Shown one piece after another: positions 7,143-62,464 of a DNA stretch of 64,000 bases. Numbering within the stretch: position 1 is the stretch's first letter; the number at the start of each line of letters is the position of its first letter. The notes beneath the pieces were generated by a model. That model saw only the letters and a program-made list of their open reading frames with translations, ran no database searches and was not told the DNA's origin. Source of the stretch: Kiritimatiellia bacterium (GTDB taxonomy: Bacteria > Verrucomicrobiota > Kiritimatiellia > CAIQIC01 > Lenti-01); NCBI GenBank assembly GCA_017458625.1, contig JAFTAH010000138.1, forward strand, positions 1,877 through 65,876, read 5' to 3'. The position numbers were made by a program, and so were the translations under genes.

Positions 7143-8336
7143 TCATGGCGTGATTCCCCGGTAGTGAAGCGGAGCGGACTCGCCCTCGGCCTCGGCGGCG
7201 GCTTTCGCGGCCTGCTCGGCAGCGGCGGCGTCGAACGAGTTGTCCTCCAGCCACAACGTGGACTGCTTGAAGTCGAGCACGACCGTGTATTCCCGCCAGA
7301 GCCGCCAGCCGATGCGCGGCGGAGCTTCCGGAGGCAGGCCCAGCGACTCGTGCGTGACGACCGGCACCTCGTCCAGGACGTAGCCACCCAGGTCCAGCAT
7401 CGCCGTTCCGCGCTCGGCCGCCCCGGCCAGTTCAGGCACCCCAGCCGGCACCGACAACGCAAAATCGCCGGCCAGGTCAATCCAGCAGTTCTGCATGCTC
7501 CCGTCGATCCGGGCAACGACGGACGGCCGCTCCCGCACCATCGTCATCGGCAGATGGAGGACCTCCTGCGACCCCGAACGGTAGGTCTGCGATGTCGCCA
7601 GAATCGCCGTCCGCTCCGGAAAGCTGATCCGGATGAACGAAAAGGCCTGCATCAGGGAGGCCCCCATCACGGCGGTGATGCGCTTGCGGGCGCCTTCCAT
7701 CGCCCGCCGGACGAGCCAGGAACGTTCCGGCGCCGGGGCCGCCTCAGGACGCGCCAACGGCCCCAGCAGACCATACGCAGGCGGCACGTAGTAGACGGGC
7801 GACTCGACGTGCAACGTCTCGAACACCACCTTGTTGGCCACCCCCGCATAGCCCGGAATGTCCGAGACCACATGGTCCGGATACTCGCCGATGGGCTCGC
7901 CGTCCGGATCCTCCTTGAACGGCCGATAGTCCTGGTCGGGCGCGCTCTCGTAGCGGCACCAGTTCTGCCGCGCGGTCGGATCCAGCAGCAGCCCGTATTC
8001 CTCCATGCGGGCCGACTCCGCTCGCACGATAGGCAACGAGGACTTCCCCGGGCCGAAAAACCGGACTAGCGCGCTCTTGCCGTACCAGGGACGGTTCGCG
8101 TTCTGGAACACCGGCTTGCCCGTCGTCCCGCGATAGACCGTGATGTTGGCCACGCGGGCGTCGCGGCCGCTCTCGATGAAGGCGTCGACCTCCGCCTGGG
8201 GGGCCGGCTCCGGCGCCAGGGGCAGCCGATCGACCCCGAAGCGCAGACAGCCCGCCCCCAGCAGGGGCAACAAGGCCAGCGTCAACGTCGCAGCGCCAAT
8301 GGCGGAAACAGGTTGTCGCAGAGGAAACAAGCTCAT
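7143..8336 (-). CDS. Hypothetical lipoprotein, degenerate two-domain retropepsin-like fold
   Basis: Lipobox LGAGC; LLLDPTA...VMGASLMQAF and WIDLAG...RIGWRLWREYTVVLDF resemble Asp_protease_2 patterns. Confidence 0.55.
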   Translation of the reverse strand: MSLFPLRQPVSAIGAATLTLALLPLLGAGCLRFGVDRLPLAPEPAPQAEVDAFIESGRDARVANITVYRGTTGKPVFQNANRPWYGKSALVRFFGPGKSSLPIVRAESARMEEYGLLLDPTARQNWCRYESAPDQDYRPFKEDPDGEPIGEYPDHVVSDIPGYAGVANKVVFETLHVESPVYYVPPAYGLLGPLARPEAAPAPERSWLVRRAMEGARKRITAVMGASLMQAFSFIRISFPERTAILATSQTYRSGSQEVLHLPMTMVRERPSVVARIDGSMQNCWIDLAGDFALSVPAGVPELAGAAERGTAMLDLGGYVLDEVPVVTHESLGLPPEAPPRIGWRLWREYTVVLDFKQSTLWLEDNSFDAAAAEQAAKAAAEAEGESAPLHYRGITP

Positions 8337-8535
8337 GGTGGTTGCAGTATGCGCCCCCGACGCCCCCGACGCAAACCGAATCCGCCTCCCCCTCCGCCGT
8401 TCGACCGTCGACTGTCGGCCGTCGTTCCTCTCCCCTCCCCTCCCTTGCCTCTGGCCGTCCCGTTCCCCCTTTGCCTCCCCCTTCTGCCTCCCCCTTTGTC
8501 CTCCGCCCCCCTTCCTCCGCACCCCCCAAAAGCGT

Positions 8536-8551
8536 GTGATTCTACGTAAAA
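8536..8551 (+). repeat. Polar intergenic motif copy (GTGATTCTACGTAAAA)
   Basis: Between divergent genes; followed by TATTGGCTTTTTTACCCATTT. Confidence 0.85.
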
Positions 8552-8727
8552 TATTGGCTTTTTTACCCATTTCACCTCTCAGGCCACAGGGCCGTCGCGC
8601 CTCGCCTCCCCTCCCCTTTTTCGCCCCCCTCCATCCCCGGATTTCGTGCGCGACAAGCCCCCGCCGCTGCGCTATGATGCTTCCCGTCACGGCGGCATCC
8701 CCCGCCACACAGGAAGCGAGGCGCAAG

Positions 8728-9612
8728 ATGAGAATGGATGGCAGACGGCAGAGTTCCCACGTGGACGACAGACGCGGACGTACGGCCAAGGTGGCCGGCG
8801 GCCTGGGACTGGGCGGCATCCTGCTCGTCGCCCTCCTCTCCTACCTCGGCGGCGGCAATCCGCTGGAGGCGATCTTCGGCGCCATCTCGCAAAGCGGCGG
8901 CATCAACCTCGGCGGCCAGACCACTTCCCAGCAGGCCGAACCCTACCAGCCCACCGCCGAGGAGGAGGAGCTCGCCGTCTTCGCCCGCCAGATCCTCGCC
9001 GGCACGGAGGACGTCTGGACCGAGCTCTTCGCCCGGCAGGGCAAGCGCTACACGCCGCCCAAGCTCGTTCTCTTCACCGATGCGGTCCAGAGCGGCTGCG
9101 GCGGTGCCACCAAGCAGACCGGGCCCTTCTACTGCTCCGCCGACCAGAACGTCTATCTCGACCTCTCCTTCTTCAGCTCCATGCGCCGCGACCTCGGCGC
9201 CGACGGCGACTTCGCCTACGCCTACGTCATCGGTCACGAGATCGGCCACCACGTCCAGCATCTGCTCGGCACCCTCGACCAGGCCCACGCCCGCATGCAG
9301 CGCCTCGGCAAGGAGGAGGCCAACCGCATCAGCGTCCGCCTCGAGCTCCAGGCCGACTTCTACGCCGGCGTCTGGGCCCATCACGACAACGCCCGCTTCG
9401 GCAGCCTCGAGGACGGCGACATCGAGGAGGCCATCCGCTGCGCCCAGGTCATCGGCGACGACTTCCTCCAGAAGAAGGCCCGCGGCTACGTCCAGCCCGA
9501 CAGCTTCACCCACGGCACCAGCGCCTCCCGCATGCGCTGGTTCAAGCGCGGACTCGCCAGCGGCAACCTCGCGGACGGCGACACCTTCTCCGTCCCCTTC
9601 GACCAGCTCTAG
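8728..9612 (+). CDS. Neutral zinc metallopeptidase (YpfJ / Zn_peptidase family)
   Basis: MRMDGRRQSSHVDDRR start, GPFYCSAD, AYVIGHEIGHHVQ, ELQADFYAG, FTHGTS. Confidence 0.93.
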   Translation: MRMDGRRQSSHVDDRRGRTAKVAGGLGLGGILLVALLSYLGGGNPLEAIFGAISQSGGINLGGQTTSQQAEPYQPTAEEEELAVFARQILAGTEDVWTELFARQGKRYTPPKLVLFTDAVQSGCGGATKQTGPFYCSADQNVYLDLSFFSSMRRDLGADGDFAYAYVIGHEIGHHVQHLLGTLDQAHARMQRLGKEEANRISVRLELQADFYAGVWAHHDNARFGSLEDGDIEEAIRCAQVIGDDFLQKKARGYVQPDSFTHGTSASRMRWFKRGLASGNLADGDTFSVPFDQL

Positions 9613-9693
9613 CCGCGCGATGCGCCCGTCCGGCCCCCGCCCCACGTCCTGGCCCCGGACCCTCCGGTCTGCCCTCTGGCCGCCGCCTAGCCG

Positions 9694-11985
9694 ATGAGTT
9701 CCCGCGATTCCACGGCCCGTCCGCACGGCTTTGGCACCTTCCAGGGCGTCTTCACGCCGAGCATCCTCACGATCATCGGCGTGGTCATGTACCTGCGCTT
9801 CGGGTGGGTGCTGGGCAACCTCGGCCTGGGCGCCACCCTGCTCCTGGTCACCGCCTCCAGCGCCATCACCTTCCTCACCGGCCTGTCCGTCTCCGCGCTT
9901 GCCACCAACCGCGAAGTCGGCGGCGGCGGGGCCTACTACATGGTGTCGCGCGCCTTTGGCGCGGAGGTGGGCGCGGCCGTCGGCATCCCCCTCTACCTCT
10001 CGCAGGCCATTGCCATCGCCTTCTACGTCGCCGGCTTCACCGAGGCCTTCCTCGGCTCCGTCCCCGCCGCCGCCAACTGGGATCCACGCCTCGTCGGCAC
10101 CGTGGTGCTGCTCTCCCTGGCCGCCCTCTCGCTCTTCTCCGCCAACCTCGCCCTCAAGGCCCAGTACGTGATCATGGCGGCCATCGTCGCCTCGCTCGTC
10201 TCCTTTTTCCTCGGCACCGCCCCCGCCCCGGACGTCCTCGGCAACCCGCTCTCCACCGTCGCCAAGAAGGACTTCTGGACCGTCCTGGCCGTCTTCTTCC
10301 CCGCCGTCACTGGCATCCTTTCGGGCGTCGGCATGAGCGGCGACCTGGCCGATCCTGGCCGCGCCATCCCGCGCGGCACGCTCGGCGCCGTCCTGACGGG
10401 CTGGGTCATCTACATGGCCGTCCCGATTGCCTTCCAGCACTTCGCCGGCGGCTCGGCGGCGCTCATCGAAGACCCCATGCTCTTCGCCAAGTGCGCCCGC
10501 TGGGCCGGGGCCGTCACCGTGGGCGTCTGGGCCGCGTGCCTCTCCAGCGCCCTGGGCTCCCTGCTCGCCGCCCCCCGCGTCGTCCAGGCCGTCGCCCGCG
10601 ACCGCCTTCTCCCCGAGGCCTTTGGCCGCGGCTACGGCCCCAGCGACGAGCCCCGCCTGGCCACCACCTTCACCCTGCTCCTCGCCACGGCCTGCATCTG
10701 GGCGGGCGGCGTCGACCTCCTCGCCCCCGTCCTCACCATGATCAACCTCATCGTCTACGCCCTCCTCAACCTCTCCGCCGGGTTCGAGGAACTGGTCGGA
10801 AGCCCCTCCTGGCGCCCGCGTTTCCGCGTCCCCGCCCCCCTCTCCCTGCTCGGCTTCGCCGGCTGCGCCACCGTCATGCTGCTCATCAGCGCCTCCGCCA
10901 CCATCGTCGCCGTCGCCGTCGTCGCCACCCTCCACTGGATCCTCATGCGCCGCCGCCTCAACGCCCGCTGGGGCGACATCCGGCGTGGCTTCCGCCTCTG
11001 GACCGTCCAGCGCAGCCTCCGCGCCCTCGCCGACTCCGCCGACGACGGCCGCAACTGGCAACCCGACCTCCTGGTGCTCGCCGGCACCCCCTCCCGCCGC
11101 CCCCGCCTCGTCCGCCTCGCCGGCGCCATCGCCCGCGACCACGGCCTCGTGACCGTCGCCGCCGTCATCCCCGCCGAGAACTGGACCGCCGCCCGGGCCG
11201 ACTCCATGCGGCAGGCCATCCGCGCCTACCTCGACCGCGAAGGGCTCCACGCCTTTGCCTACGTCCATCCCGGCGGTACCCCGTCCCCCTGGACCGGCAT
11301 GCGCGAAATGGTCCGCACCTACGGCTTCGGGCCTGTCGCCCCCAACACCATACTCCTCGGCTTCACCTCCGACCCCGCCGCCCAGCCCGAACTCGCCGCC
11401 CTCGTCCAGCTCGCCGCCCAGATGCGCCGCAACGTCGTCCTCGTCGCCGGCGCCGGGGCTGGCGATGAAGAAGACAATGTCCCGTCCCCGCCAGCGGCGG
11501 CTACGCCAGCCGAACCTGCCACCTCGACCGCCCCGCCGCCCCTCGCGCCTCCGCCTCGCCCCTTCCGCATCGACCTCTGGTGGCGCGGCAAGGGCCCCAA
11601 CGCCCCCTTCCTCCTTGCCCTCGCCTGGCTGGTCCAACACGCCCGCCGCCACGAAGCCACTTGCCTCCGCCTCTGCCACGTCCTCGAGCCCGGCGAATCC
11701 TCCTCCGCCGTCGCCGCCACCCTCCGCGCCTTCCTCGCGCAAATCCGCGTCGACGGCGAAGTCAACCCCGTCGCCCCCGCCGGACGCTCTCCCATGCAGG
11801 CCATCCGCGACGAATCCGCCGACGCCTTCCTCGTCATCATGGGCCTCCGCGCCCCGCTCCCCGACGAAGCCCCAGCCGCCTACGGCGCCTACCTCGATGC
11901 CTGCCGCGCCTCTGCCACCGGCCTCCCCCTGACCGCCTTCGCCCTTGCCGCCGAGTCCCTCGACTTCCGCGGCATCTTCGCCTAG
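9694..11985 (+). CDS. Amino-acid permease / cation-chloride cotransporter (SLC12-like)
   Basis: FGTFQGVFTPSILTIIGV, GGGGAYYMVSR, FFPAVTGI.SG..MSGDL, ~12 TM helices plus C-terminal cytoplasmic domain (RNWQPDLLV). Confidence 0.9.
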   Translation: MSSRDSTARPHGFGTFQGVFTPSILTIIGVVMYLRFGWVLGNLGLGATLLLVTASSAITFLTGLSVSALATNREVGGGGAYYMVSRAFGAEVGAAVGIPLYLSQAIAIAFYVAGFTEAFLGSVPAAANWDPRLVGTVVLLSLAALSLFSANLALKAQYVIMAAIVASLVSFFLGTAPAPDVLGNPLSTVAKKDFWTVLAVFFPAVTGILSGVGMSGDLADPGRAIPRGTLGAVLTGWVIYMAVPIAFQHFAGGSAALIEDPMLFAKCARWAGAVTVGVWAACLSSALGSLLAAPRVVQAVARDRLLPEAFGRGYGPSDEPRLATTFTLLLATACIWAGGVDLLAPVLTMINLIVYALLNLSAGFEELVGSPSWRPRFRVPAPLSLLGFAGCATVMLLISASATIVAVAVVATLHWILMRRRLNARWGDIRRGFRLWTVQRSLRALADSADDGRNWQPDLLVLAGTPSRRPRLVRLAGAIARDHGLVTVAAVIPAENWTAARADSMRQAIRAYLDREGLHAFAYVHPGGTPSPWTGMREMVRTYGFGPVAPNTILLGFTSDPAAQPELAALVQLAAQMRRNVVLVAGAGAGDEEDNVPSPPAAATPAEPATSTAPPPLAPPPRPFRIDLWWRGKGPNAPFLLALAWLVQHARRHEATCLRLCHVLEPGESSSAVAATLRAFLAQIRVDGEVNPVAPAGRSPMQAIRDESADAFLVIMGLRAPLPDEAPAAYGAYLDACRASATGLPLTAFALAAESLDFRGIFA

Positions 11986-12054
11986 CCCCCCACGCCCGCC
12001 CCCGCTCCTCGCCCCTCCGCCCCTCCGCCCCCCCCTTTTGCCCTCCAAAATGCT

Positions 12055-12070
12055 GTGATTTTACGTCAAA
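12055..12070 (+). repeat. Polar intergenic motif copy
   Basis: GTGATTTTACGTCAAACATTGGGTTTTTG. Confidence 0.9.
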
Positions 12071-12236
12071 CATTGGGTTTTTGCTCATTTTTCCTGTTCC
12101 GCCCCGTTCGGTTCCGGGCTGCGCGGCCCGCCTCCCCTCTCCTGCCCCCCTTCCCGGGGTGTCGGGGCCTCGCCCCGCGAAAAGGTTGGAGCCCCCCCCT
12201 GGAGTGTGCTAGGATGACCCCATCAGGGGCAAACCC

Positions 12237-15200
12237 ATGCGCCACAACCATTCCCACACCCCACCCCGCTCCGGCCACCTGGGCCAGCTGGCGGTTCTGC
12301 TCGCAGCCACCGTCGCCCTCGCCCTGACGGCCTGCCAGGCCCCGGGACCATCCCGCACGTCCATGCTCCCCCCGCGCGAGCTGTGGACAACGACCACCAA
12401 CGTCACGACCACGGCCAACGCCTTCTCGCCCACGGCGGCCCCCGTGGAGACCTTCGTCGCCATCGACCTCTCCCGCCCCACGCAGCTCGTCGCGGCCGCC
12501 CTCGACTGGGCCCCGGAGAGTGTTCCGTCCGCCTACTCCATTGAAGTCACCGACGATCCCGACACCTCCCCCTGGGTGACGGTGGCAACGGCCTCGCACC
12601 CTGTCCCGGGCCTCCAGCTCCTGACTTTTACGCCCACTCTGGCCCAGCACATCCGGGTCCATGTCTCCTCGGCGGCCGTAACGAACCCGCCCCTCCTGCG
12701 CCGCTTCCGCCCCATCCCCTACGCCCAGCGCCCGACGGCCGTCTGGACGCTCCCCGACGGCTCGACGCTGCCGCTCCCCGACACCACCCCGCTCTTCGAC
12801 GAATCCCCGGACACCCCCCTCGTCGCCCCCGCCATCGCTCCGGGGGACACCCTCCAGCTCGACATCGACCTCCACGCGCTCTTCTCCATCGGCGGCGTCC
12901 GCCTCGACTGGGCTTCCCCCAAGGCCCGCCCCGCCGCCCTGACGCTCTACCTTTCCCGCGACGGCGCCAACTGGATCGAGGCCGGATCCATCGACCCGGA
13001 CGCCGCCGATGCCAGCGATGTCGTCATCGTCACCCGCTCGCTTCCCGTACGCCACATCCGGCTCGCAGCCATGGCCCCCTCGCCCTCCTCCGATGACGCC
13101 CAGAAGGCCAAGAAGTCCCCCAACGCCTCTCCGCCAGACGCCAAGACGCCCAAGCAGGACGCCACCGCCCCCGCCGCAGACGCTCCCTCGCCTTCCGATG
13201 CCCCGCCGCCTTCGGCCCCAGCCGCTTCCCCGGAGAAGAAGAAGGGCGTGGCCACCGCCGTCGCCTCGACCATCGCCGAAGCCACGACGAAGACGGCCTC
13301 TGCCACCGTTTCCGTGCTCGAGACGGCCGCCAGCGCCACGGTCTCCGCCGCTGGAGCCACCGTCTCGGCAATCGCCTCGGCCCCGGGGGCCCTCGTGTCG
13401 TCGGTCGAGCGCATCGTGGCACCCGCCGTGAAGCCGGTTTTCGCGTTCAGCCTGCTCGGCCTTTCGTTCCGCGATGCCGACGCCGCCAGCCGCCCCTGGT
13501 TGCTCTACCAGGCTTCCGCCGCCCATGTTCCGCCCGCGCTCGCCCCGCGCGCCCTGCTCGGCCAGCAGCCCTTCTGGACAGTCGCCCTTTCCCCCGCCAC
13601 CACCACCGGTCCCCTGCTCTCCACGGAAGGCGCCTTCGCCCCCTCCGCCACGGCCCCCTCGCTCTGGCCCGTCGCCATCGTCGGCACCAACGCCTACACC
13701 CCCGCCAACGCCAGGTCCGCCAGCTACTCCATCCCCGCCCCCGGCGTCCCCCTCCCCGCCGCCACCTGGTCTTTCCCCGACGGCCTCTCCCTCGCCCTCC
13801 GCATCCTCCCCGTCTCCACTTCCACCCCCACGAATCCGCTCGGTCGTCCGCTGATCCTCGCCTCCTACGAATGGGCCAATGCCTCCTCGAATCCGCTCCC
13901 CGTCCGGCTCGCCTGGATTCTCCGGCCCCTCCGCGTGCCCGCCCCGGCGGCCAAGGGCGGCCTGGCCTTCATCGCCCGCCTCCGCAGCAGCCGTCCCGCC
14001 GCCGTCTCCACCCCAGACCTCCAGGAGCTCCGCGTCAACGCCGAGCCCCTCTACGCCACGGCCGCCCCCGGTCTGAAGTGCGTCGCCGCCCCCTTCCGCG
14101 AGGCCGACATCACCACCTCCCTCCTCGCCCCGCCCGCAATGCCCGACACCGATGCCGCCAACGACCGCTCCGGCCTCGCCTCCGCCGCCTGGGTGCTCGA
14201 CACCGTCATCCCCCCGCTTGCCAGCAACCGCGTCGTCATCGCCGCCACCCCACCCCTCTTCGACTCCGACCGGCTGCTCCGCCATCTTTCCGCCCCCGCC
14301 GCCCCCGCCTCGGCCTCGACCCCGCCGGAGCCTTCCGGGCCGCGCCTCTTCTGGCGGAAAACGGCGGCCCTGCCGCAGCATTCGTCTCTCCCCTCCCCGC
14401 TCGCCACCCTGCCCGGACATGACGCCTCCGTCACCGCCACGCCTGCGGACGGCACTCCCGCCGACGCCACCGGCCCCCGCCGCCACGTCCCGCCACGCCC
14501 CGCCTGGCCCCCCACCGAGGACGCCGCCGAAGCCCTCTTCGACGCCGCCTACGCCGACGCCACCTTCGCCGCCTACGCCCGCCTCGGCGCCTACGCCCCC
14601 GACATCCACCACCCACGCCCCCTCCAAGTCCAGCGCCTCCAGTTCGCCTATCTTCTCCAACTCGATGCCGACACCCGCCTCGTTCCCGACGCCGCCGACC
14701 GCATCCGTCTCGACGACGACATCTGGCGCTTCGCCGCCCTCCTCCGCGCCGGACTCGTCCAGCCCGCCGCCGACTGGCTCAAGCTTCTCCTTGCCGCCCA
14801 GAACCCGACCAACGGGGCCGTCCCCGCCCTCTACGCAGCCTTCCCCCTCGGCTTCGTCCCCGCCAGCCCCAACACCGCCCCCGGCCTCGCCCTCGGCGAC
14901 ACCGATGCCGCCCCCGACGCCCCCTCCGACACCGATGCCGCCCCCTCCCGCCTCCAGGACGTCCCCGCCGTCCCCGCCCCCGATGCCGAACAGGCCGGCC
15001 ACAACTCCGCCCACTCCCAGCTCGTCTTCGCCTGCATGGAGTTCTTCCGCTTCACCCACGACACCACCTTCCTCCGCGCCGCCTACCCCTCCATGCGCGC
15101 CGCCATGGCCTATCTCCAGGGCCTCCACGAAGCCGTCATTCCCCGCCCCCCCTCCCGCTTGCGCCGCCTCTTCTCCTCCCCCCCCGATCCCACCCCCGCC

Positions 15201-16220
15201 TTCGGCCTCCTCCCCGCCTCCCCCTCCGACCCCGACCGCCATCCCTACGTCCACGCCTTCTGGGCCCTCCTCGGCTGGAAGGAGCTCCGCGCCGCCGCCA
15301 CCACCCTCGGCCTCGACGAGGACGCCGCCTGGGCCGACTCCCACTACCAGGCGCTTCGAGGCCTCCTCCAACACTCCTTCGACCTCCTCTTCCAGGACTA
15401 TCCCCCCGGCCGCCTCCGGCTCCTTCTCGCCTCCCCGGACCCTGGCGCGCCCCCTTCCCCCTACGATGCCGCCCTCCTGGTCTGGCCCGTCTGCGAACCC
15501 GACCTCCTGCCCCGCCACGTCCTGCTCTCCACCCTGGCCCTCGGCTACGAGCCCTTCCTCCGCGCCGTTCCTCTCGCCCCCCTCGAACGTCCGGGCGCTG
15601 TCACCGCCACGGCGGACGCCGCCACCGCCGCGCCCGCCCCCCTCTCCCGGCCCCCGCGCCTATCCCTCGAAGCCATCCGCCTGCTCCTCCCCCTCTCCCT
15701 CTCCGGCCGCGCCGACTACGCCCGCGAGATCCTCTTCACCCTCACCGACGCCCTGACCCCCGCCCCCTGGGGAGCCCTCCCCATGGCCTATCCTCCCGGC
15801 CCCTCCCCCATGCCCTACCCCCGCGCCGCCGCCCTCTACGCCCTCGCCGTCCGCCAGATCCTCCTCCACGAAGATCCCGCCACCCAGGTCCTCCACCTCC
15901 TCCCCGGCTGTCCCCCCGACTGGCTCCAGCTCGGCGACGGCCTCTCCCTCCCCTCCGCCCCCACCGCCTATGGCCCCGTCTCCCTCGCCGCCTCCATCCG
16001 CGGCCGCCACTTCCGCCTGACCTTCTCCGGCTCGGCCTCCCCTCCCGGCGGCTACCGCCTCTGGTGGCCCCGCCAGCTCAAGCCCCTCCGCGTCCGCCTC
16101 AACTCCGCCGAGCTCGCCCCCGACGCCTACGACGAGCTCGGCATCTCCCTCCCCCCCTCCTTCTCCGGCTCCCTCGTCGCCACCTACGACGACGACTTCC
16201 CCTCCTCCCGCGACTTCTAG
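12237..16220 (+). CDS. Large lipoprotein with discoidin (F5/8C)-like domains and a six-hairpin glycosidase-like C-terminal part
   Basis: Lipobox LALTAC; LQLDIDL...IGGVRLDW...YLSRDGANW; FGLLPAS, HPY.HAFWALLG, APTAYGPVS. Confidence 0.6.
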   Translation: MRHNHSHTPPRSGHLGQLAVLLAATVALALTACQAPGPSRTSMLPPRELWTTTTNVTTTANAFSPTAAPVETFVAIDLSRPTQLVAAALDWAPESVPSAYSIEVTDDPDTSPWVTVATASHPVPGLQLLTFTPTLAQHIRVHVSSAAVTNPPLLRRFRPIPYAQRPTAVWTLPDGSTLPLPDTTPLFDESPDTPLVAPAIAPGDTLQLDIDLHALFSIGGVRLDWASPKARPAALTLYLSRDGANWIEAGSIDPDAADASDVVIVTRSLPVRHIRLAAMAPSPSSDDAQKAKKSPNASPPDAKTPKQDATAPAADAPSPSDAPPPSAPAASPEKKKGVATAVASTIAEATTKTASATVSVLETAASATVSAAGATVSAIASAPGALVSSVERIVAPAVKPVFAFSLLGLSFRDADAASRPWLLYQASAAHVPPALAPRALLGQQPFWTVALSPATTTGPLLSTEGAFAPSATAPSLWPVAIVGTNAYTPANARSASYSIPAPGVPLPAATWSFPDGLSLALRILPVSTSTPTNPLGRPLILASYEWANASSNPLPVRLAWILRPLRVPAPAAKGGLAFIARLRSSRPAAVSTPDLQELRVNAEPLYATAAPGLKCVAAPFREADITTSLLAPPAMPDTDAANDRSGLASAAWVLDTVIPPLASNRVVIAATPPLFDSDRLLRHLSAPAAPASASTPPEPSGPRLFWRKTAALPQHSSLPSPLATLPGHDASVTATPADGTPADATGPRRHVPPRPAWPPTEDAAEALFDAAYADATFAAYARLGAYAPDIHHPRPLQVQRLQFAYLLQLDADTRLVPDAADRIRLDDDIWRFAALLRAGLVQPAADWLKLLLAAQNPTNGAVPALYAAFPLGFVPASPNTAPGLALGDTDAAPDAPSDTDAAPSRLQDVPAVPAPDAEQAGHNSAHSQLVFACMEFFRFTHDTTFLRAAYPSMRAAMAYLQGLHEAVIPRPPSRLRRLFSSPPDPTPAFGLLPASPSDPDRHPYVHAFWALLGWKELRAAATTLGLDEDAAWADSHYQALRGLLQHSFDLLFQDYPPGRLRLLLASPDPGAPPSPYDAALLVWPVCEPDLLPRHVLLSTLALGYEPFLRAVPLAPLERPGAVTATADAATAAPAPLSRPPRLSLEAIRLLLPLSLSGRADYAREILFTLTDALTPAPWGALPMAYPPGPSPMPYPRAAALYALAVRQILLHEDPATQVLHLLPGCPPDWLQLGDGLSLPSAPTAYGPVSLAASIRGRHFRLTFSGSASPPGGYRLWWPRQLKPLRVRLNSAELAPDAYDELGISLPPSFSGSLVATYDDDFPSSRDF

Positions 16221-16345
16221 CCCCTCCCCGGCCCTCGCCTCCCCTGCCCTCGCCTCCCCTGCCCTCGCCTCCCCAGGGAAGCGCGGGGGGCCTTCCCCCG
16301 TCCTTTGCCTCCCCCCTCTCCGCCTCCCCTTCGTCCCCAAATGTC

Positions 16346-16361
16346 GTGATTCTACGTCAAA
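16346..16361 (+). repeat. Polar intergenic motif copy
   Basis: GTGATTCTACGTCAAAATCAGGCCTTTTTT, between convergent genes. Confidence 0.9.
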
Positions 16362-16455: not shown

Positions 16456-16462
16456 TCCCCCT

Positions 16463-54233: not shown

Positions 54234-54427
54234 AAATCGATTCCTCCCACGACTTCGGCACCCGCGAATGCCCCTCCTGCGGCGTCCGCGTCCCCGCCAA
54301 CGAGAACCGCTGCCCCATCTGCCACTACCCCTTCCCCGTCAAGTCCACCCTCTCCCGCTCCGCCCCTCTCATTGCCCTCGTCCTTCTCCTCATCTTTCTC
54401 GCCCTCCTCCTCCCCCTCTTCCTCTAG
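54230..54427 (+). CDS. Small zinc-ribbon membrane protein
   Basis: GTGA overlap with upstream stop; CPSC..CPIC plus C-terminal TM helix. Confidence 0.7.
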   Translation: MKIDSSHDFGTRECPSCGVRVPANENRCPICHYPFPVKSTLSRSAPLIALVLLLIFLALLLPLFL

Positions 54428-54563
54428 AGCATTTTCAAGAATATTGCAGCCGTTTTCGGTAGGGGCCGACCGCCGGGCGGCCCGAAGAACAATTCGGGAA
54501 ACGGCCCGCCCGGCGGTCGGGCCCTACCATGGATGTGGCCACATATTTTCTTAATTCGCTCTA
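54425..54563. mobile_element. MITE-like element (139 bp) with TAGAGC...GCTCTA ends containing a GTAG REP doublet
   Basis: Ends TAGAGCATTTTCAAGAATATTGCAGCC and GGCCACATATTTTCTTAATTCGCTCTA; inside, GTAGGGGCCGACCGCCGGGCGGCCCG and its inverted copy. Confidence 0.75.
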
Positions 54564-54858
54564 CCCTCCTAGAAATCCTAGAAATCTTTAGAAATCTCTC
54601 GCCTTCCCCGCCCCCCCTGCGCCCACCCGCCCCCCCCGTCGCCATCGTCCCCCTCGTCCCCTCCTCCCCCCCGCAAAAAATCTTCTCCTCCCCCTCATTT
54701 TTCTCTTGCCCGTCCCCTCCCCTAGGCGTACCCTTGACTTGGATTCGGGAAGCGGACTCCTCTCCGGAACCACCCGCCCCCCCCATCCAAAAAACGCATA
54801 AAACCTTAGAGAAAACTGACAAAACTCCACAACGGGCAACAGCCCAAAGGATGGCCAA

Positions 54859-55536
54859 ATGAAAAAAGTATCCCTGATTCTCCTCGCCGCCGCCCTCTCG
54901 GCAACGGCCACCCTCGCCCAGTCGGCGACTGAGCCCGTCTACTCCCAGAATGCCGTCGGTTTCATCAACAAGACCGTCGAAGCTGGCACCTATGCAGCCT
55001 TGACCTTCCCGTTCGTTGACATGGCCGCGACCAATGACCTGATTGACTTCGACTCCCAGCAGATTGCCAAGGATGCCACCCGTGGCTCTACCGTCTATTT
55101 CTGGAATGGAACTGGTTGGGATATGAAGACTGCACGCAACAATGGCTTCAATACCGGCAAGAAGCTTCTCCCCGGTGAACTGTTCCTGTACAAGCCCGCC
55201 TCGCAGCAGACTGTGGTCCTCTGCGGTGAAGTTCCCGATAGCGCAGAGCTTCAACGCGATATCGTAGGTGCGGCCAACTACACGGCTTGCGGCAATCCCT
55301 ATCCCGTTGCTACTGAATTTGATACTTCGACTTTGGCGACTAGTTCTCCCCGTGGTGCGACTGCGTATTTCTGGAATGGAACTGGTTGGGATATGAAGAC
55401 TGCGCGCAACAATGGCTTCAATACCGGCAAGATTCTTGATCCTGGTGAGGGTTTCTTGTACAAGACACTTGCAACAGGTGCCTCGACGAACTGGGTTGTG
55501 ACCCGCCCCTATGACTTCCCTGCTGCCAAGGAATAA
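54859..55536 (+). CDS. Secreted protein with internal two-fold repeat (VYSxNxVG-type N-terminus)
   Basis: Signal peptide; YFWNGTGWDMKTARNNGFNTGK occurs twice; many T-ending codons. Confidence 0.8.
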   Translation: MKKVSLILLAAALSATATLAQSATEPVYSQNAVGFINKTVEAGTYAALTFPFVDMAATNDLIDFDSQQIAKDATRGSTVYFWNGTGWDMKTARNNGFNTGKKLLPGELFLYKPASQQTVVLCGEVPDSAELQRDIVGAANYTACGNPYPVATEFDTSTLATSSPRGATAYFWNGTGWDMKTARNNGFNTGKILDPGEGFLYKTLATGASTNWVVTRPYDFPAAKE

Positions 55537-55566
55537 CCCATAACATTTAGAAAGAAAGGTCTGAAA

Positions 55567-56226
55567 ATGAAGAAAGTATTGATTGGCTTGTTGGTCGCCT
55601 TGATGGCTGCCTCGTCGTTCGCTGGTATACTTGTCGCTTGGGATACAGGTGGTTTCTTGAGTGGTACTGATGGTAACCCTTATGTTTTCGATAGCGATGA
55701 CGAAAGCACTACGAAATTGGTCTGGGATTTGGTCTATACGACCGATTCCTCTATCACCACGCCTGTGCTGAATGAGACAACGGGTGAAATCACGTACGGA
55801 AAGAACGACACGATTGTCTCCCAGCGTATTGCGACGCCAGGTGCCGATAAGGTGAACACGGAGATCACTGATCTCATCGGCTCGCCTCAGGTTTCTCTGA
55901 GTCCGCAGGAGATGGATGCTGGTGCCTACTTGAATAATGTAACATACCAGCACAGGGAGTTCCCCTATAGCTCTGGTGGGCTGTATGCGGCGGTGTTCCA
56001 GTACACGTCTGACAACACCGTTTATTACGCTATGACGGCTTTGGTTACAGAGGTCAACTGGTCGAATGATGGTTCTGCCACGCCGACTGAAGTTTGCTTC
56101 GACTTGACCGCTGATACCCAGTTGGAGAAGTTGGGCTCGTTCACTCCTGTGCCTGAGCCCGCTACGATGAGCCTGCTGGGCCTTGGCGCGCTGGCGATGG
56201 TTCTCCGCCGCAAGCTCCGCAAGTAG
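55567..56226 (+). CDS. PEP-CTERM protein
   Basis: Signal peptide; C-terminal VPEPATMSLLGLGALAMVLRRKLRK; SD GAAAGG. Confidence 0.93.
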   Translation: MKKVLIGLLVALMAASSFAGILVAWDTGGFLSGTDGNPYVFDSDDESTTKLVWDLVYTTDSSITTPVLNETTGEITYGKNDTIVSQRIATPGADKVNTEITDLIGSPQVSLSPQEMDAGAYLNNVTYQHREFPYSSGGLYAAVFQYTSDNTVYYAMTALVTEVNWSNDGSATPTEVCFDLTADTQLEKLGSFTPVPEPATMSLLGLGALAMVLRRKLRK

Positions 56227-56249
56227 TTTTCGGTTAGGTTATATACGTT

Positions 56250-56282
56250 CTGGCCGGTGGGCATCGCTCACCGGCCAGTTTT
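56250..56282 (+). terminator. Intrinsic terminator
   Basis: CTGGCCGGTG-GGCATCGCT-CACCGGCCAG-TTTT. Confidence 0.8.
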
Positions 56283-56425
56283 GTATTCCCCCTTCCCCGC
56301 CCACCCCTTGTTGTGACGAGGACGCCCCCACCCTCGCCCTTTCCCTTCTCCTCGCCCCTTTCTTCCTTCCCCTTTTTTCCCCCTCTCTCAACCCTGGCCC
56401 CTCCACCCCGCCCGCTCCAATCGTC

Positions 56426-56846
56426 GTGATTTTACGTCAATCATTGCCCATTTAGGGCAAATTTAGAAAATTTGTGGCCACATCCATGGTAGGGCCCGAC
56501 CGCCGGGCGGCCCGGAAAACCAATGCGAGGAACGCCCCGCCTCCTCTCCACCCCCCTCCCCCGAAATTCTCGAAACCCTCTCAATTCTCGATTTGCCTCC
56601 CCCGTCTCTACGTCTCTGCGCCTCTACTCCCCCTCCTCCCGACCCGCCCCAATCGTCGTGATTTTACGTCAATCATTGCCCATTTCGCCCATTTTTCCTC
56701 CCATTCATCCCCGTTTTTCCCCGCCTCATCCCCCCCCTTCTTCGTCCCCTCCCGTCCCCCTTGCCACCCCCTCCCGTACCGCAGGGGCGTCATCCCTCGC
56801 CCTCGCCCATTTTCGCCCCTCCAAATTCGCGTGATTTCACGTCAAA
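56426..56846 (+). repeat. Cluster of three polar motif copies (56426, 56658, 56831)
   Basis: CCAATCGTCGTGATTTTACGTCAATCATTGCCCATTT twice, plus GTGATTTCACGTCAAAATCAGCC. Confidence 0.9.
56453..56583. mobile_element. Partly eroded MITE copy; 56453-56514 is an inverted copy of ~54501-54563
   Basis: TAGGGCAAATTTAGAAAATTTGTGGCCACATCCATGGTAGGGCCCGACCGCCGGGCGG. Confidence 0.6.
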
Positions 56847-60339: not shown

Positions 60340-60349
60340 GGGAAGTCTC

Positions 60350-62464
60350 CTAGGATTCGGCGGCGTCTTCTTCCGTCTCGCGCCGCGTGTTGCCGTAATA
60401 CTTCTTCGTTGTGTAGTGATAGTAGTAATAGTAGTCGTCGCGCATGATGTTGATGTTGTTCAGCACGGCTCCCATCAGGGTGCCGCCCGCATTCTCCACC
60501 ATCCGCTTCGCCCGCAGACTGATCAGCTTCGGATACTTCCGATACTGCACCACGAGCAGCACGCCATCCGCCTCGGAAGACAGGATCGCCGCGTCCGTCA
60601 CGCCGAGGATCGGAGGGGAATCCATCAAGATGACATCATAGTGCGGCTTGAGCTTGTCCAGCAACGCCCGGATGCGAGGCCCGTTCATGATTCCCAACGT
60701 ACCGCGGCGAATGCGCCCGGCCGTGATCATCGACAGATTCGGCACGCCCGTCTCCTGCACCGCCTCCATCGGCTCGAGCTCGCCCAGCAAGATGTTGACC
60801 AGTCCCTTCTTGTTGGAAAGACCCACCATCTTATGCTGCACGGGACGGCGCATGTCGGCGTCGATGACCAGCACGTTGCTCCCCTGTTCCGCATAGACGT
60901 ACGAAAGGTTGAACAGCGTCGTCGACTTGCCTTCGCCCACACCACCGGAAACCACGGTGAACACCTTCTGGTTCCCTTCGCGCGCCAGCAGCGCCAACGA
61001 CGTCCTGAGCCCGCGGTACGCCTCGCCCTGGCCCGAGGAATGCCCCGCCTCGGTGAGCGGCCGCGACTGCTGCGGAATGACCGCCAGCACGGACAGGCCG
61101 AGGTACTTCTCGACTTCGTCGACCGTCTTCAGCGACACATCGAGGTATTCGACGAAGAACGCCAGCCCCACGCCGGCCAGCAGACCGAGCACCACGGACA
61201 GGACGATGTTGAGCGGAATGATCGGCGAGGAAGGACGCTCCGGGGCCTCCGCCTCCTCCACGATATGCACCATGGTGCGCGGTACTTCCAGCTCGATGCC
61301 GGTCTGCGTGACCCGCGCGCGCAACGCCGTCAGGATGTCGCGCTGCAGGGCCACCTCGCGGTCGGCACGTTCGAACGGCAGCAGGTCGGCGGCCTGCGAC
61401 TCGATGTCGAGCGCGCGCAATTCGTCGAGTTCCTTCTGGAGCGAATCCACCTTGCTCTTCCGCACCTGATAGTCGGCGGAAAGCCCTCGCTTGAGGCCAT
61501 CCAGCGACTCTTCGAGCTGCTTCTTGATCTCGTCAATGGCCCCCTTCAGCCGCTTGATGTTCGGGTGGTTCTCGCCCAGCGTCCCATCCGCCAGCATCGT
61601 CTGCAACGACACATTCGCATCGATGTACTGCTGGCGCAACGCCACCAGGGCCGGATCGCTGACCGTGTACACGGCCGCCGACAGCAGCTGCTCGCCATCC
61701 AGCTGCGACAACTCGTCCATGCGCGTCTTGCTCTGGATCATCTCGACGCGCGCCGCCGACACCTGCTGCTCCAGCATCTGAATCCGCTGGAGTTCCGCGC
61801 TAATCGACCCCGAATACGTCCGTGCCACCAGCAGCAGGTTCTTCTCCGAACGAATCTTCTCCAGCTTGTTCTCCGCTTCCTCCACGCGTTCCTGCTGGAG
61901 GCGCAACTCGTTGCTCATCGCATCGATCGAGTTCTGGATCTTGCGCCGGACGTCCTGCTCGCGCGAAGCCTGGTACACGCTGGCAATCTCGTTGGCAATC
62001 TCCGCCGACTGCTTGGGATTCTCGGTCGTCACGCGGATGTTCATCAAGGTGGTATCGCGGTCCTGCTCGACCCGTATCGAGCGCTGCAGCATCCGACGCG
62101 TCTCCTCGGCGTCGAGCGGCGACTTGTCCTCGTTCAGTTCCGCCCCCCACACCCGCTGGAGGTTGAGATTGTGCATGACCTTCGTCAGAATCGGCCGCGA
62201 GGTCATGATTTTTTCCTGCGTCAGCAGGAAGAACGGGTTGTACCCCGCACCGGACGACGACCGGTTGCCGAACGGATCAACATCCAGTTGCTCGTCGCGC
62301 ACCTCGATCTGCGTCTGTGCCGTGTACTTCTTCGGCATCATCACCGTGTAGAACGTACCCGTGACAATCGTCATCAGGGCAACCGCCAGGACCACTTCCT
62401 TGCGGTCGCGAATGACACGCCAGTAGTCCAAAAAATGCAGGGAATTTACGGATTCTTCAGCCAT
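60350..62464 (-). CDS. Polysaccharide co-polymerase / tyrosine autokinase (Wzc-like)
   Basis: Wzz-like N-terminus, two TM helices, EAYRGLRT, GEGKST, IDADMRRP, DSPP, C-terminal Tyr cluster YYYYYHY. Confidence 0.93.
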   Translation of the reverse strand: MAEESVNSLHFLDYWRVIRDRKEVVLAVALMTIVTGTFYTVMMPKKYTAQTQIEVRDEQLDVDPFGNRSSSGAGYNPFFLLTQEKIMTSRPILTKVMHNLNLQRVWGAELNEDKSPLDAEETRRMLQRSIRVEQDRDTTLMNIRVTTENPKQSAEIANEIASVYQASREQDVRRKIQNSIDAMSNELRLQQERVEEAENKLEKIRSEKNLLLVARTYSGSISAELQRIQMLEQQVSAARVEMIQSKTRMDELSQLDGEQLLSAAVYTVSDPALVALRQQYIDANVSLQTMLADGTLGENHPNIKRLKGAIDEIKKQLEESLDGLKRGLSADYQVRKSKVDSLQKELDELRALDIESQAADLLPFERADREVALQRDILTALRARVTQTGIELEVPRTMVHIVEEAEAPERPSSPIIPLNIVLSVVLGLLAGVGLAFFVEYLDVSLKTVDEVEKYLGLSVLAVIPQQSRPLTEAGHSSGQGEAYRGLRTSLALLAREGNQKVFTVVSGGVGEGKSTTLFNLSYVYAEQGSNVLVIDADMRRPVQHKMVGLSNKKGLVNILLGELEPMEAVQETGVPNLSMITAGRIRRGTLGIMNGPRIRALLDKLKPHYDVILMDSPPILGVTDAAILSSEADGVLLVVQYRKYPKLISLRAKRMVENAGGTLMGAVLNNINIMRDDYYYYYHYTTKKYYGNTRRETEEDAAES

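What the first reader, a model, noticed from the sequence alone, without database searches (positions are those of the whole stretch)
7143..62464. Local strand composition and synonymous codon choice follow motif orientation, not gene orientation
Seen by eye, not quantified. Genes here default to C-ending codons. Minus-strand genes next to plus-oriented motifs (7143-8336, EEP 16463-17362, decarboxylase 49421-51619, wzy/wza/wzc 57206-62464) use G-ending codons, so the plus strand stays C-rich. The more distant beta-barrel gene of the same locus reverts to C3. Plus-strand genes next to the minus motif at 42590 (42648-44371) are G3. Gene 23160-23912 starts C-rich beside a plus motif and ends G-rich beside a minus motif. 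Plus genes flanking plus motifs (end of 12237-16220, epmA, aroBC, malQ) are extremely C-rich. Exceptions exist just right of 27884 and 32602. Inference: either many small inversions of a replichore-polarised motif, or the motif nucleates a kb-scale strand-asymmetric mutational process (for example a helicase or nickase loading site). Switches inside a gene and inside an operon favour the second.
Basis: partly seen in the sequence, partly recalled or inferred. Interest (0 to 1): 0.75.

Follow-up and report, generated by a model that had tools for sequence, protein, structure and literature searches.

The report
Strand-locked codon mosaic in Kiritimatiellae
In this uncultured gut bacterium, stretches of roughly 5-30 kb have one DNA strand almost stripped of G at freely changeable sites whichever way the genes point; this is an unusually strong and patchy form of a known strand bias, and the repeated motif marks its direction but does not cause it.

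Summary
At fourfold sites the + strand is 80-100% C over 14.5-20 kb and 44.8-54.4 kb, straight through Pfam-confirmed minus-strand genes: EEP has C-G skew -0.86, the decarboxylase -0.80 and wzy/wza/wzc -0.51 to -0.27. Genome-wide, adjacent opposite-oriented genes have anticorrelated skew (r=-0.55). At 159 of 241 classifiable orientation switches the strand composition continues.

Motif orientation tracks this field. Exact copies are aligned with it in 88-91% of cases, and the skew is strongest within 2 kb 5' of the motif. But the motif is not the cause:
- It has 81 copies here and 0-1 in four sister genomes whose leuS is equally skewed.
- Reversed genes are as common more than 8 kb from any copy.
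- Once flank composition is in the regression, the motif adds nothing.

A sister genus shows the same gene-independent field organised by replichore, flipping at dnaA. Here it forms a mosaic that loses coherence beyond about 20 kb, in a clade with scrambled synteny.

My best reading (0.38) is a replication-type strand bias broken up by segmental rearrangement. A locally anchored oriented process (0.27) is not excluded. Transcription read-through found no support.

The scan has noted similar orientation-independent skew mosaics before in archaea and phages, of the G+T type. This one is C+T.

The parts
1..4760 (+). Domain with a C-rich + strand. Three plus-strand genes have fourfold C-G skew +0.56 to +0.73, rising 5' to 3' within each gene.
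4834..8285 (-). Two minus-strand genes (a TPR/GDSL protein and an unknown) with near-neutral to G-leaning coding strands (+0.02 and -0.22). This is a gradual transition zone.
8791..27809 (+). Long domain with a C-rich + strand. The plus-referenced skew is +0.35 to +1.0 over most of it and dips to about -0.07 to +0.4 across the low-GC4 gene at 20366-22738. It includes epmA-like and aroB/aroC genes at +0.74 to +0.99.
16466..17344 (-). EEP-family gene on the minus strand with a G-rich coding strand (-0.86). The + strand stays 89-100% C-skewed across it.
   Evidence: Pfam PF03372
28039..30275 (-). Domain with a G-rich + strand: radical SAM and GT4 genes, both C-rich in their own coding strands. 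There is an abrupt flip at about 27.9 kb, next to the motif at 27884.
33304..38969 (-). Domain with a G-rich + strand (lpxK, LplA-like, HlyD, OEP and a DDE transposase fragment). It contains the only exact minus-oriented motif in the window (34644).
42699..44368 (+). Two plus-strand genes with G-leaning coding strands (-0.44 and -0.37), flanked by co-oriented C-rich genes (rpsA +0.78, leuS +0.83). The same two-gene island is G-leaning between co-oriented C-rich genes in G006 (-0.37 and -0.13, between +0.51 and +0.42).
   Evidence: Contigs from 4 independent runs bridge both flips.
44487..44563 (-). tRNA-His, lying exactly at the flip between the island and leuS.
44756..54424 (+). Extreme domain. 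The plus-referenced skew is +0.6 to +1.0 through leuS, malQ, the minus-strand decarboxylase and a molybdopterin-type dehydrogenase gene.
49424..51607 (-). Orn/Lys/Arg decarboxylase gene on the minus strand with a G-rich coding strand (-0.80). It is also G-rich in G006 (-0.66) and in loci L018 and L019 (-0.78 and -0.76).
   Evidence: Pfam PF01276/PF03711
57209..62431 (-). wzy, wza and wzc on the minus strand with G-leaning coding strands (-0.51, -0.36, -0.27).
62656..64000 (-). Minus-strand genes that revert to C-rich coding strands (+0.25). The field flips at about 62.4 kb.
2726..56845 (.). 14 copies of the intergenic motif GTGATTTYACGTMAA (up to 2 mismatches). On the + strand: 2726, 8536, 12055, 16346, 17512, 22810, 23062, 27884, 32602, 47570, 56426, 56658 and 56831. 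On the - strand: 34644. Each has a C-rich tract 5' and two T-runs 3'.
   Evidence: About 0.04 copies expected by chance.
49358..49410 (+). CTAG-periodic array between malQ and the decarboxylase. Other arrays lie at 36692-36760 (opposite orientation, in the opposite field) and 54570-54600. The k-mer CTAGAATCCT lies on the C-rich strand 26:1 genome-wide.

Best explanation
The window is a mosaic of segments that lose coherence beyond about 20 kb. In each segment one DNA strand is strongly pyrimidine-rich at silent sites (C far above G, T above A). All genes in the segment share that strand composition whichever way they point.

A weaker effect tied to a gene's own direction is superimposed. Coding strands lean to C, increasingly from 5' to 3'.

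Most likely mechanism. The segment-level field is a strand-asymmetric substitution pressure of the replication-skew kind. In the sister genus G013 the same gene-independent field is organised by replichore and flips at dnaA. In this clade the pressure is much stronger, and the chromosome has been cut and re-pasted so often that segments carrying opposite histories now lie side by side. The GTGATTTYACGTMAA repeat is a species-specific, strand-polar intergenic element that travels with its segment. It therefore reports the field direction without causing it.

Shown: the field exists, it is independent of gene orientation, it affects amino-acid usage, the motif is not needed, G013 has the replichore form, and synteny is scrambled.

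Inferred: that the field here is replication-linked, and that rearrangement produced the mosaic.
For: 1. The field is independent of gene direction.
- Opposite-oriented neighbours give r=-0.545.
- At convergent junctions (n=195), 42 have both genes C-rich, 86 have one reversed and 2 have both reversed, where 11.2 would be expected by chance. At divergent junctions (n=187) the counts are 33, 73 and 5.
- All 64 reversed directons (runs of co-oriented genes) with both flanks known adjoin a flank of the same strand composition, 51 of them on both sides.
- Whole operons are reversed at full amplitude, and Pfam confirms 20 of the 30 G-rich genes tested.

2. It acts at the DNA level, not through codon choice for translation.
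- Between the most G-skewed and most C-skewed gene classes, Gly falls from 10.2 to 6.7%, Glu falls from 7.6 to 4.4% and Pro rises from 4.5 to 7.5%.
- T-A skew at fourfold sites follows C-G skew (rho 0.55).

3. The sister genus G013 shows the replichore form.
- Opposite-oriented neighbours give r=-0.76. Junction counts are 3 both C-rich, 32 one reversed and 0 both reversed.
- The field correlates over 100 kb.
- The sign flips within a few kb of dnaA-dnaN for genes of both orientations.
- Whole-sequence GC skew there is about +/-0.2. A runs slightly with G, so the asymmetry is of the same purine/pyrimidine kind.

4. Synteny is scrambled in the clade.
- The 143 G000-G006 orthologues fall into 111 blocks.
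- G006 and G014 are 85-98% identical, yet their shared blocks are only about 2.5-3 kb and sit inside long contigs. In the G013 genus, blocks are 7-10 kb at about 80% identity.
- dnaA and dnaN lie on different contigs here but are adjacent in G006, G013 and G005.

5. Skew depends on context. Orthologues with no conserved neighbours agree in sign 52% of the time (n=87); those in conserved blocks agree 84% (n=56).

6. The share of flips that fall between tandem genes (74 of 156) is about what breakpoints scattered in proportion to intergenic length would give (45%; my arithmetic).
Against: - The residual field has no long-range order: 0.28 at 10-20 kb, 0.08 at 20-30 kb and about 0 beyond. Yet both signs reach near-saturation on the same contigs. 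That needs nearly all of the roughly 150 flips to be recent.
- Contigs from 4 other studies, about 1% diverged, are collinear across the two flips at 42.5 and 44.5 kb.
- Polarity is a problem. In G013 the leading strand is G-rich, and leuS (-0.38) and the ribosomal-protein operon sit on it. In the five genomes of this clade leuS is +0.78 to +0.95. Housekeeping genes in the window all sit on the locally C-rich strand. So either the sign of the replication bias reversed, or most genes are head-on to replication.
- The two-gene G-leaning island between co-oriented C-rich genes is conserved in G006, although its neighbours there are different.
- Abrupt flips where C-rich strands converge outnumber the opposite type, 46 to 25.
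- Gene-referenced skew rises 5' to 3' within genes, from 0.13 to 0.48 (p=4e-49), and along directons. Both need a second process tied to gene direction.
- tRNA orientation is uncorrelated with the field.
- Around dnaA in G006 no clear replichore field is visible.
Confidence: 0.38

Rival explanations
1. A locally anchored, oriented DNA process sets the field domain by domain. Candidates are repeated one-directional repair or recombination-dependent synthesis, resection tracts, or strand-biased gene conversion. It would start weakly, build up along its direction and stop abruptly at intergenic elements. It would be neither replication from oriC nor transcription of the annotated genes. Polar intergenic repeats would mark or bound the tracts, with a different repeat in each species.
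For: - Both signs reach saturation on one contig, and there is no long-range order.
- Abrupt flips outnumber gradual ones, 46 to 25.
- Many tandem flips sit on the motif, on CTAG arrays or on the hairpin repeat.
- Skew is greatest within 2 kb 5' of the motif and decays over 5-10 kb.
- Intergenic repeats are polar to the field: TTTACGTCAA 28:1 and CTAGAATCCT 26:1. G006 has its own polar k-mer, CGATATCAAG, at 10:2.
- The G-leaning island is conserved between genera despite new neighbours.
- Gene layout explains under 5% of the variance, while flank composition explains about 60%.
- A C:G ratio near 40:1, with GC4 rising along with |skew|, looks more like a fixation bias than a plain mutation bias. 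This last point is inference.
Against: - No known bacterial mechanism of this kind exists.
- The one identified polar motif is not needed, either across species or within this genome.
- The sister genus shows that ordinary replication gives the same kind of field.
- The 5'-to-3' gradient follows gene direction, not field direction.
Confidence: 0.27
2. The asymmetry is coupled to transcription: the non-template strand loses purines or the template strand is preferentially repaired. It was amplified in this clade. Read-through from constitutively expressed units then imposes their direction on silent neighbours.
For: - Coding strands lean to C on average (+0.27), with the same sign as the small gene-direction effect in G013 (+0.12).
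- Skew rises 5' to 3' within genes and along directons. The S10/spc operon rises from about 0 to about +0.7 over 8 kb.
- Housekeeping genes sit on the C-rich strand, and the reversed genes are mostly accessory.
- Passages of PMC13323073 show that Rho avoidance can shape the purine content of coding strands.
Against: - Whole housekeeping-type operons (recO-hflX-mscS, the sdaA operon, an xdh-type operon) are reversed at the same amplitude as their supposed drivers.
- Having opposite-oriented genes downstream that transcribe towards a gene, rather than co-oriented ones, makes almost no difference (-0.31 against -0.25). The R2 is only 0.033-0.045.
- Anti-oriented genes downstream of the 38 tRNA genes are no more often reversed than those upstream (9 of 16 against 8 of 22).
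- In reversed directons the field rises rather than decays away from the entry side.
- The most transcribed operon has only weak skew.
- The sign is opposite to the published purine bias.
Confidence: 0.13
3. The reading the first reader favoured: the GTGATTTYACGTMAA motif itself loads a helicase or nickase and nucleates the kb-scale asymmetric process.
For: - Skew is aligned with the motif and depends on distance from it.
- Exact copies are aligned with the field in 88-91% of cases (n=33), against 58-64% with the majority gene orientation.
- The number of motif-like sites (127-235) is of the same order as the number of domains.
Against: - There are 0-1 copies in G001, G006, G010 and G014, which share the extreme skew, and 0-1 in the 31 other family genomes.
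- Reversed genes and anticorrelated neighbours persist more than 8-12 kb from any site with up to 3 mismatches.
- The motif adds nothing once flank composition is known.
- The field lies on both sides of the motif.
Confidence: 0.04
4. Artefact: either wrong-strand gene calls in a high-GC genome, or chimeric contigs mis-joined at the abundant intergenic repeats.
For: - High-GC genomes have long antisense ORFs.
- Several flips lie at repeats.
- This is a MAG of 165 contigs.
Against: - Pfam places 5 window genes and 20 of 30 further G-rich genes on the called strand.
- G-rich and C-rich genes have equal coding-score margins over their antisense frames (0.26 against 0.25 per codon).
- There are 37 protein homologues for the island gene.
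- Contigs from four other studies bridge 42.1-44.9, 48.7-50.3 and 50.3-54.4 kb. Only two flips were checked in this way.
Confidence: 0.03

Closest known systems
Replication-strand-specific codon usage (strand-specific mutational bias dominating synonymous choice). Chlamydia muridarum, PMC2089121, and Lawsonia intracellularis, PMC2671203: search listing and start of abstract only. Borrelia burgdorferi: recalled, not seen.
   Same: G-ending or C-ending codons are decided by the DNA strand rather than by the gene. Amino-acid usage is shifted too. The sister genome G013 is a textbook case, with a flip at dnaA.
   Different: Here there is no replichore order: domains lose coherence beyond about 20 kb and both signs occur on one contig. 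The amplitude is far larger, with C:G up to about 40:1 at fourfold sites. The asymmetry is C+T against G+A. Housekeeping genes lie on the C-rich strand, the opposite of G013.
Gene-level GC skew as a record of inversions (Merrikh and Merrikh 2018, PMC6220195: abstract and outline read).
   Same: Genes whose skew disagrees with their strand are read as segments that changed orientation relative to replication. This is the logic of my best explanation.
   Different: The fork direction is unknown here. About 29% of genes, and whole operons at saturated amplitude, would have to be recent inversions.
Coding-strand purine bias driven by Rho avoidance under runaway transcription (PMC13323073: abstract and passages read).
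   Same: It is a genome-wide purine/pyrimidine asymmetry that constrains codon choice. The 5'-low, 3'-high C content within genes seen here is what a constraint strongest at 5' ends would give (inference).
   Different: The sign is opposite, since coding strands here are pyrimidine-rich on average. The main field ignores gene direction. Rho is present.
Strand asymmetry of animal mitochondrial genomes, with effects on protein composition (PMC2779903 and PMC4182315: search listing only).
   Same: The amplitude at fourfold sites is comparable, proteins are affected, and the sign reverses after inversions.
   Different: Those are small genomes with a single replicon and one control region. This is a bacterial chromosome with many domains.

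Membership tests
Replication-associated strand compositional asymmetry | Skew at neutral sites is set by the strand, independently of gene orientation. | tested here: met
   Opposite-oriented neighbours give r=-0.545. One gene is reversed at 159 of 241 classifiable orientation switches.
Replication-associated strand compositional asymmetry | The sign is uniform within a replichore and switches only at the origin and terminus. | tested here: not met
   In G000 the field correlation is 0.08 at 20-30 kb and about 0 beyond, and several flips occur per contig. The feature is met in sister genome G013, with a flip at dnaA and one more switch in 380 kb.
Replication-associated strand compositional asymmetry | The leading strand is G-rich. 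| tested here: inconclusive
   The fork direction in G000 is unknown. leuS, rpsA, typA, aroBC and lpxK lie on the locally C-rich strand. In G013 the leading strand is G-rich.
Replication-associated strand compositional asymmetry | Mutational nature: non-synonymous positions and amino-acid usage shift in the same direction. | tested here: met
   Skew at codon positions 1 and 2 correlates with fourfold skew (rho 0.44 and 0.50). Gly, Glu, Val and Lys trade off against Pro, His, Ile and Asp.
Transcription-linked coding-strand bias (purine loading or Rho avoidance) | The bias follows the coding strand and flips with gene orientation. | tested here: not met
   Both genes are C-rich in their own coding strands at only 75 of 241 classifiable switches. 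Reversed operons are confirmed.
Transcription-linked coding-strand bias (purine loading or Rho avoidance) | The coding strand is purine-rich. | tested here: not met
   Mean fourfold C-G skew is +0.27, and T exceeds A in C-rich genes.
Transcription-linked coding-strand bias (purine loading or Rho avoidance) | The bias scales with transcription or spreads downstream of strong units. | tested here: not met
   The S10/spc operon ranges from -0.34 to +0.73. The tRNA test was negative. The one-sided regression gave R2 of 0.045 or less. Expression itself was not measured.
Replichore-polar chromosomal motifs (Chi or KOPS type; names recalled) | Short words, frequent inside genes, co-oriented with replication along a whole replichore. 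| tested here: not met
   124 of 127 copies are intergenic, at about 1 per 21 kb. Within contigs, 56 of 69 copies share the majority orientation, where about 46 would be expected by chance (my arithmetic). C95 and C123 drive that result.
Promoter or terminator element of the adjacent gene | Fixed orientation relative to the flanking gene. | tested here: not met
   The upstream gene is co-oriented in 77 of 115 cases and the downstream gene in 69 of 115. No Rfam family matches the window apart from tRNA.

The most novel reading that the evidence does not exclude
The strand asymmetry is not a fossil of replication. It is actively maintained, domain by domain, by an oriented DNA process that starts and stops at intergenic sites. 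Candidates are repeated one-directional repair or recombination-dependent synthesis, or strand-biased gene conversion. Polar repeats that differ between species mark the tracts. Such a process would be strong enough to rewrite codon and amino-acid usage in a whole clade of gut Kiritimatiellae.
Probability: 0.27. Interest if true: 0.9.

Novelty: new variant of a known kind. Interest (0 to 1): 0.65.

Why it matters
- If the mosaic is a record of rearrangement, this clade combines one of the strongest strand biases known in bacteria with an exceptional rate of genome shuffling. Silent-site skew then becomes a per-segment history of orientation.
- If the field is maintained locally, it points to an undescribed oriented mutational or conversion process in bacteria.
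- Either way there are practical consequences. Codon-usage, expression-level, HGT and GC-skew-based origin predictions will fail in these genomes. Protein composition differs systematically with a gene's strand context, which can mislead phylogenies.

Tried and rejected
- Two-state HMM segmentation split domains into sub-kb pieces. I use it only for the large-scale picture in G013 and quote no domain counts from it.
- Clade-specific loss of repair or termination genes was not found. mutY is present in 36 of 36 family genomes, mfd in 35 of 36 and rho in 32 of 36. fpg is in 18 of 36: it is absent from G001, G006, G010 and G014, but present in G000 and absent from several genomes without the extreme skew.
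- The tRNA read-through test and the one-sided gene-layout regression showed no polar spreading.
- I looked for CTAG arrays as an independent polarity marker in G013. None were found in 631 kb, so the test could not be run.
- rpoB (TIGR02013) and 16S rRNA were not found in this 80%-complete MAG.
- The SNP spectrum could not be derived. Read laying showed 40 of about 750 variant rows, and the per-run counts include other organisms at conserved genes.
- The one RNA run (X20) holds 0.07 of the words and is kept as contigs only, so it could not show strand.
- Literature searches for 'Kiritimatiell' + 'skew' (23 papers, 10 listed, none on this) and for transcription/strand asymmetry/fourfold sites found no description of this pattern. 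Only those searches were made.
- Codon dialects selected by gene class were considered. I rejected them because positions 1 and 2, amino-acid usage and T/A all shift together.
- Classical-polarity replication skew plus a strong gene effect was also rejected. It would need gene effects ranging from negative to near-saturated.

Full report
WHAT THE WINDOW IS
The window is G000:C95:1877-65876 of a 2.69-Mb, 165-contig, 80%-complete MAG with 66% GC. Related loci carry titles of gut and rumen Kiritimatiellia MAGs. The 'motif' is the intergenic word GTGATTTYACGTMAA. The window holds 14 copies with up to 2 mismatches, 13 on the + strand, where 0.04 would be expected by chance. The genome holds 127 copies, 124 of them intergenic. 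Each copy has a C-rich tract 5' of the core and two T-runs 3' of it.

CHECKING THE OBSERVATION
High-GC genomes carry long antisense ORFs. I therefore built a gene finder that scores codon positions 1 and 2 fully, but position 3 only as G/C against A/T. It cannot prefer C-ending or G-ending genes. It called 1995 genes, and 1894 had at least 40 fourfold G/C sites.

Results in the window:
- Plus-strand genes have (C-G)/(C+G) of +0.4 to +0.99.
- The plus-strand genes at 42699-44368 are -0.44 and -0.37.
- Pfam places EEP, the decarboxylase, Wzy, Wza and Wzc on the minus strand. The overlapping plus-strand ORFs hit nothing.
- In bins of 60 fourfold sites, the plus-strand skew stays at +0.8 to +1.0 from 44.8 to 54.4 kb and from 14.5 to 20 kb, straight through the oppositely oriented genes.

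One sub-claim failed. Gene 23160-23912 only drifts from +0.67 to +0.45, and no minus-oriented motif lies at its end.

GENOME-WIDE PICTURE
- 552 of 1894 genes (29%) have G-rich coding strands, and the mean skew is +0.27.
- Adjacent opposite-oriented genes have anticorrelated gene-referenced skew (r=-0.545, n=382). Same-oriented neighbours give r=+0.74 (n=1347).
- A high-confidence subset gives the same result. G-rich genes have the same coding-score margin over their antisense frames as C-rich genes.
- At convergent junctions (n=195), 42 have both genes C-rich, 86 have one reversed and 2 have both reversed. At divergent junctions (n=187) the counts are 33, 73 and 5. The remaining junctions include a near-neutral gene.
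- Of 107 reversed directons (runs of co-oriented genes), 64 have both flanks known. All 64 adjoin a flank of the same strand composition, and 51 do so on both sides.
- Reversed runs include real operons: serine dehydratase/MauE/rhodanese, recO-hflX-mscS, an xdh-type operon and a prophage. Pfam hit 20 of the 30 G-rich genes tested.
- The pressure acts on DNA, not on translation. Amino-acid usage shifts (Gly 10.2 to 6.7%, Glu 7.6 to 4.4%, Pro 4.5 to 7.5%, and Asp/Glu, Asn/Lys and Ile/Met ratios), and T runs with C at fourfold sites.
- Intergenic skew is weaker, about 0.18.

A SECOND, GENE-POLAR COMPONENT
Gene-referenced skew rises from 0.13 to 0.48 along genes of at least 400 aa (n=628, p=4e-49). 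It does so in C-rich, neutral and G-rich genes alike. It also rises from about 0 to about 0.4 over the first 3-6 kb of directons. The S10/spc operon is only -0.34 to +0.73.

THE MOTIF
Its orientation does track the field.
- Between convergent genes (n=26), the gene co-oriented with the motif has +0.69 and the other -0.19 (p=2.6e-6). For divergent pairs (n=23) the values are +0.41 and -0.18.
- Against signed distance, the motif-referenced skew peaks at +0.51 and +0.47 in the 2 kb 5' of the motif. It decays to about +0.14 at 15 kb and is +0.23 to +0.31 on the 3' side.
- Exact copies are aligned with the local field in 88-91% of cases, against 58-64% with the majority gene orientation.
- For the 597 genes within 5 kb of a motif, adding motif orientation raises R2 from 0.27 to 0.48.

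But it is not the cause.
- Flank composition alone gives R2 0.58-0.61, and the motif then adds nothing.
- The motif has 81 copies here (up to 1 mismatch). It has 0 in G001, G006 and G014, 1 in G010, and 0-1 in 31 other family genomes. leuS is +0.78 to +0.95 in exactly G000, G001, G006, G010 and G014, and -0.38 to +0.21 in seven genomes of other genera.
- More than 8 kb from any site with up to 3 mismatches, reversed genes are as frequent as near the motif.
- Other intergenic repeats are polar to the field too: CTAGAATCCT lies on the C-rich strand 26:1. CTAG arrays as a whole are less so, at 35:17.

WHAT THE FIELD IS NOT
- It is not predicted by gene layout. One-sided exponential kernels of upstream and downstream gene orientation give R2 of 0.045 or less. 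Genes transcribing towards a gene have no more effect than co-oriented downstream genes.
- tRNA genes impose nothing on downstream anti-oriented genes.
- In reversed directons the field rises, rather than decays, away from the entry side.
- No clade-specific loss of mutY, mfd, fpg or rho was found.
- It is not an assembly artefact at the two flips I could check. Contigs from four other studies bridge 42.1-44.9 kb, as well as 48.7-50.3 and 50.3-54.4 kb.

THE SISTER GENUS
In 380 kb of one G013 contig:
- Opposite-oriented neighbours give r=-0.76. Junction counts are 3 both C-rich, 32 one reversed and 0 both reversed.
- The field correlates over 100 kb and changes sign once, at about 117 kb.

On another G013 contig the sign flips within a few kb of dnaA-dnaN for genes of both orientations. 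The leading strand is G-rich. The ribosomal-protein operon lies on the G-rich strand. Whole-sequence GC skew is about +/-0.2, with A running slightly with G. So a strong, gene-independent field linked to replication is a family trait.

In G000 the residual field correlates 0.70, 0.51, 0.40 and 0.28 out to 20 kb. It correlates 0.08 at 20-30 kb and about 0 beyond. In G006 the correlation length is shorter still, and opposite-oriented neighbours give only r=-0.20.

REARRANGEMENT
- The 143 G000-G006 orthologues fall into 111 collinear blocks. Skew sign agrees in 84% of genes in conserved blocks (n=56) but only 52% of singletons (n=87).
- G006 and G014 are 85-98% identical, yet they share blocks of only about 2.5-3 kb inside long contigs. 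In the G013 genus, blocks are 7-10 kb at about 80% identity.
- dnaA and dnaN are split here.
- Window genes map to many different contigs of G001 and G006.

VERDICT ON MECHANISM
The best-supported single reading (0.38) is a replication-type strand bias, much amplified in this clade, that survives as a mosaic because segments keep changing orientation. The motif is a strand-polar passenger.

The difficulties are serious:
- Both signs are saturated on the same contigs.
- There is no long-range order.
- Polarity relative to housekeeping genes is opposite to that in G013.
- A two-gene G-leaning island between co-oriented C-rich genes is conserved in G006.
- Abrupt flips outnumber gradual ones 46 to 25 (z is about 2.5 by my arithmetic).

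These points keep alive a locally anchored oriented process (0.27). Transcription read-through (0.13) and motif nucleation (0.04) fared badly in direct tests.

KNOWN RELATIVES
- Strand-specific codon usage is described for Chlamydia and Lawsonia (PMC2089121 and PMC2671203; listing only).
- Gene-level skew has been read as a record of inversions (PMC6220195; abstract).
- Coding-strand purine bias has been attributed to Rho avoidance (PMC13323073; passages).

What is new here is the amplitude, the C+T against G+A type, the domains that lose coherence beyond about 20 kb and the apparent change of sign between sister genera. Earlier scan notes report orientation-independent kb-scale skew mosaics in archaea and phages, and a replichore-type extreme skew in a planctomycete. 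I did not test those.

LIMITS
- The gene calls are my own.
- Fork direction and expression were not measured.
- Only 414-630 kb of G006 and G013 were analysed.
- The script budget ended.

Noticed in passing
window 54455-54530 and 56960-57075 (inverted arms 54502-54563 / 56453-56514): A roughly 110-nt hairpin-type repeat flanks a 1.9-kb low-GC insert that carries a PEP-CTERM gene. Contigs of other strains join 54529 directly to 57070, skipping 2540 bases. 28-30-mers of the repeat occur at 100% identity in many copies in G006, G010 and G014. It looks like a mobile cassette bounded by a multi-copy repeat.
   Followed up: partly
genome-wide, upstream of many motif copies (e.g. window 2680-2700; D12 repeats at 1387-1552 and 30884-31017): Tandem heptamer arrays (CGCAAGT)n and 32-nt periodic repeats recur in the intergenic regions that carry the motif. 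This suggests composite intergenic elements.
   Followed up: no
G000:C25:18189-19430 and its orthologues: Rho in the extreme-skew genera has a longer open frame (782-837 aa, against about 600-720 in most others) and a lower family score (605-659 bits, against 667-681). It may be co-evolving with the C-rich transcriptome.
   Followed up: no
G000:C102:41440-42801 (dnaA) and G000:C124:7561-8655 (dnaN): dnaA and dnaN are on different contigs here, whereas they are adjacent in G006, G013 and G005.
   Followed up: partly
G006:C21:80001-100000 against G014: Congeneric genomes at 85-98% DNA identity share only about 2.5-3 kb collinear blocks, which lie inside long contigs. Identity varies from segment to segment. 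This points to an exceptional rearrangement or recombination rate.
   Followed up: partly
loci L018, L019 and L040 (decarboxylase relatives): Three other MAG loci with lower GC (0.51-0.55) also show extreme fourfold skew (-0.78, -0.76, and +0.56 to +0.64). One of them is titled Anaerovoracaceae. Extreme skew may therefore recur in other lineages, or that bin may be mislabelled.
   Followed up: no
window 20366-22738: A 791-aa ORF with low GC4 (0.78), weak skew (+0.23) and no Pfam hit sits inside an extreme domain. It is probably a recent foreign insert that has not yet taken on the local composition.
   Followed up: no
G006 intergenic regions (414 kb examined): A different intergenic repeat, with core CGCGATATCAAGGAAAA, lies on the C-rich strand 10:2-3. 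It may be the counterpart of the G000 motif.
   Followed up: no
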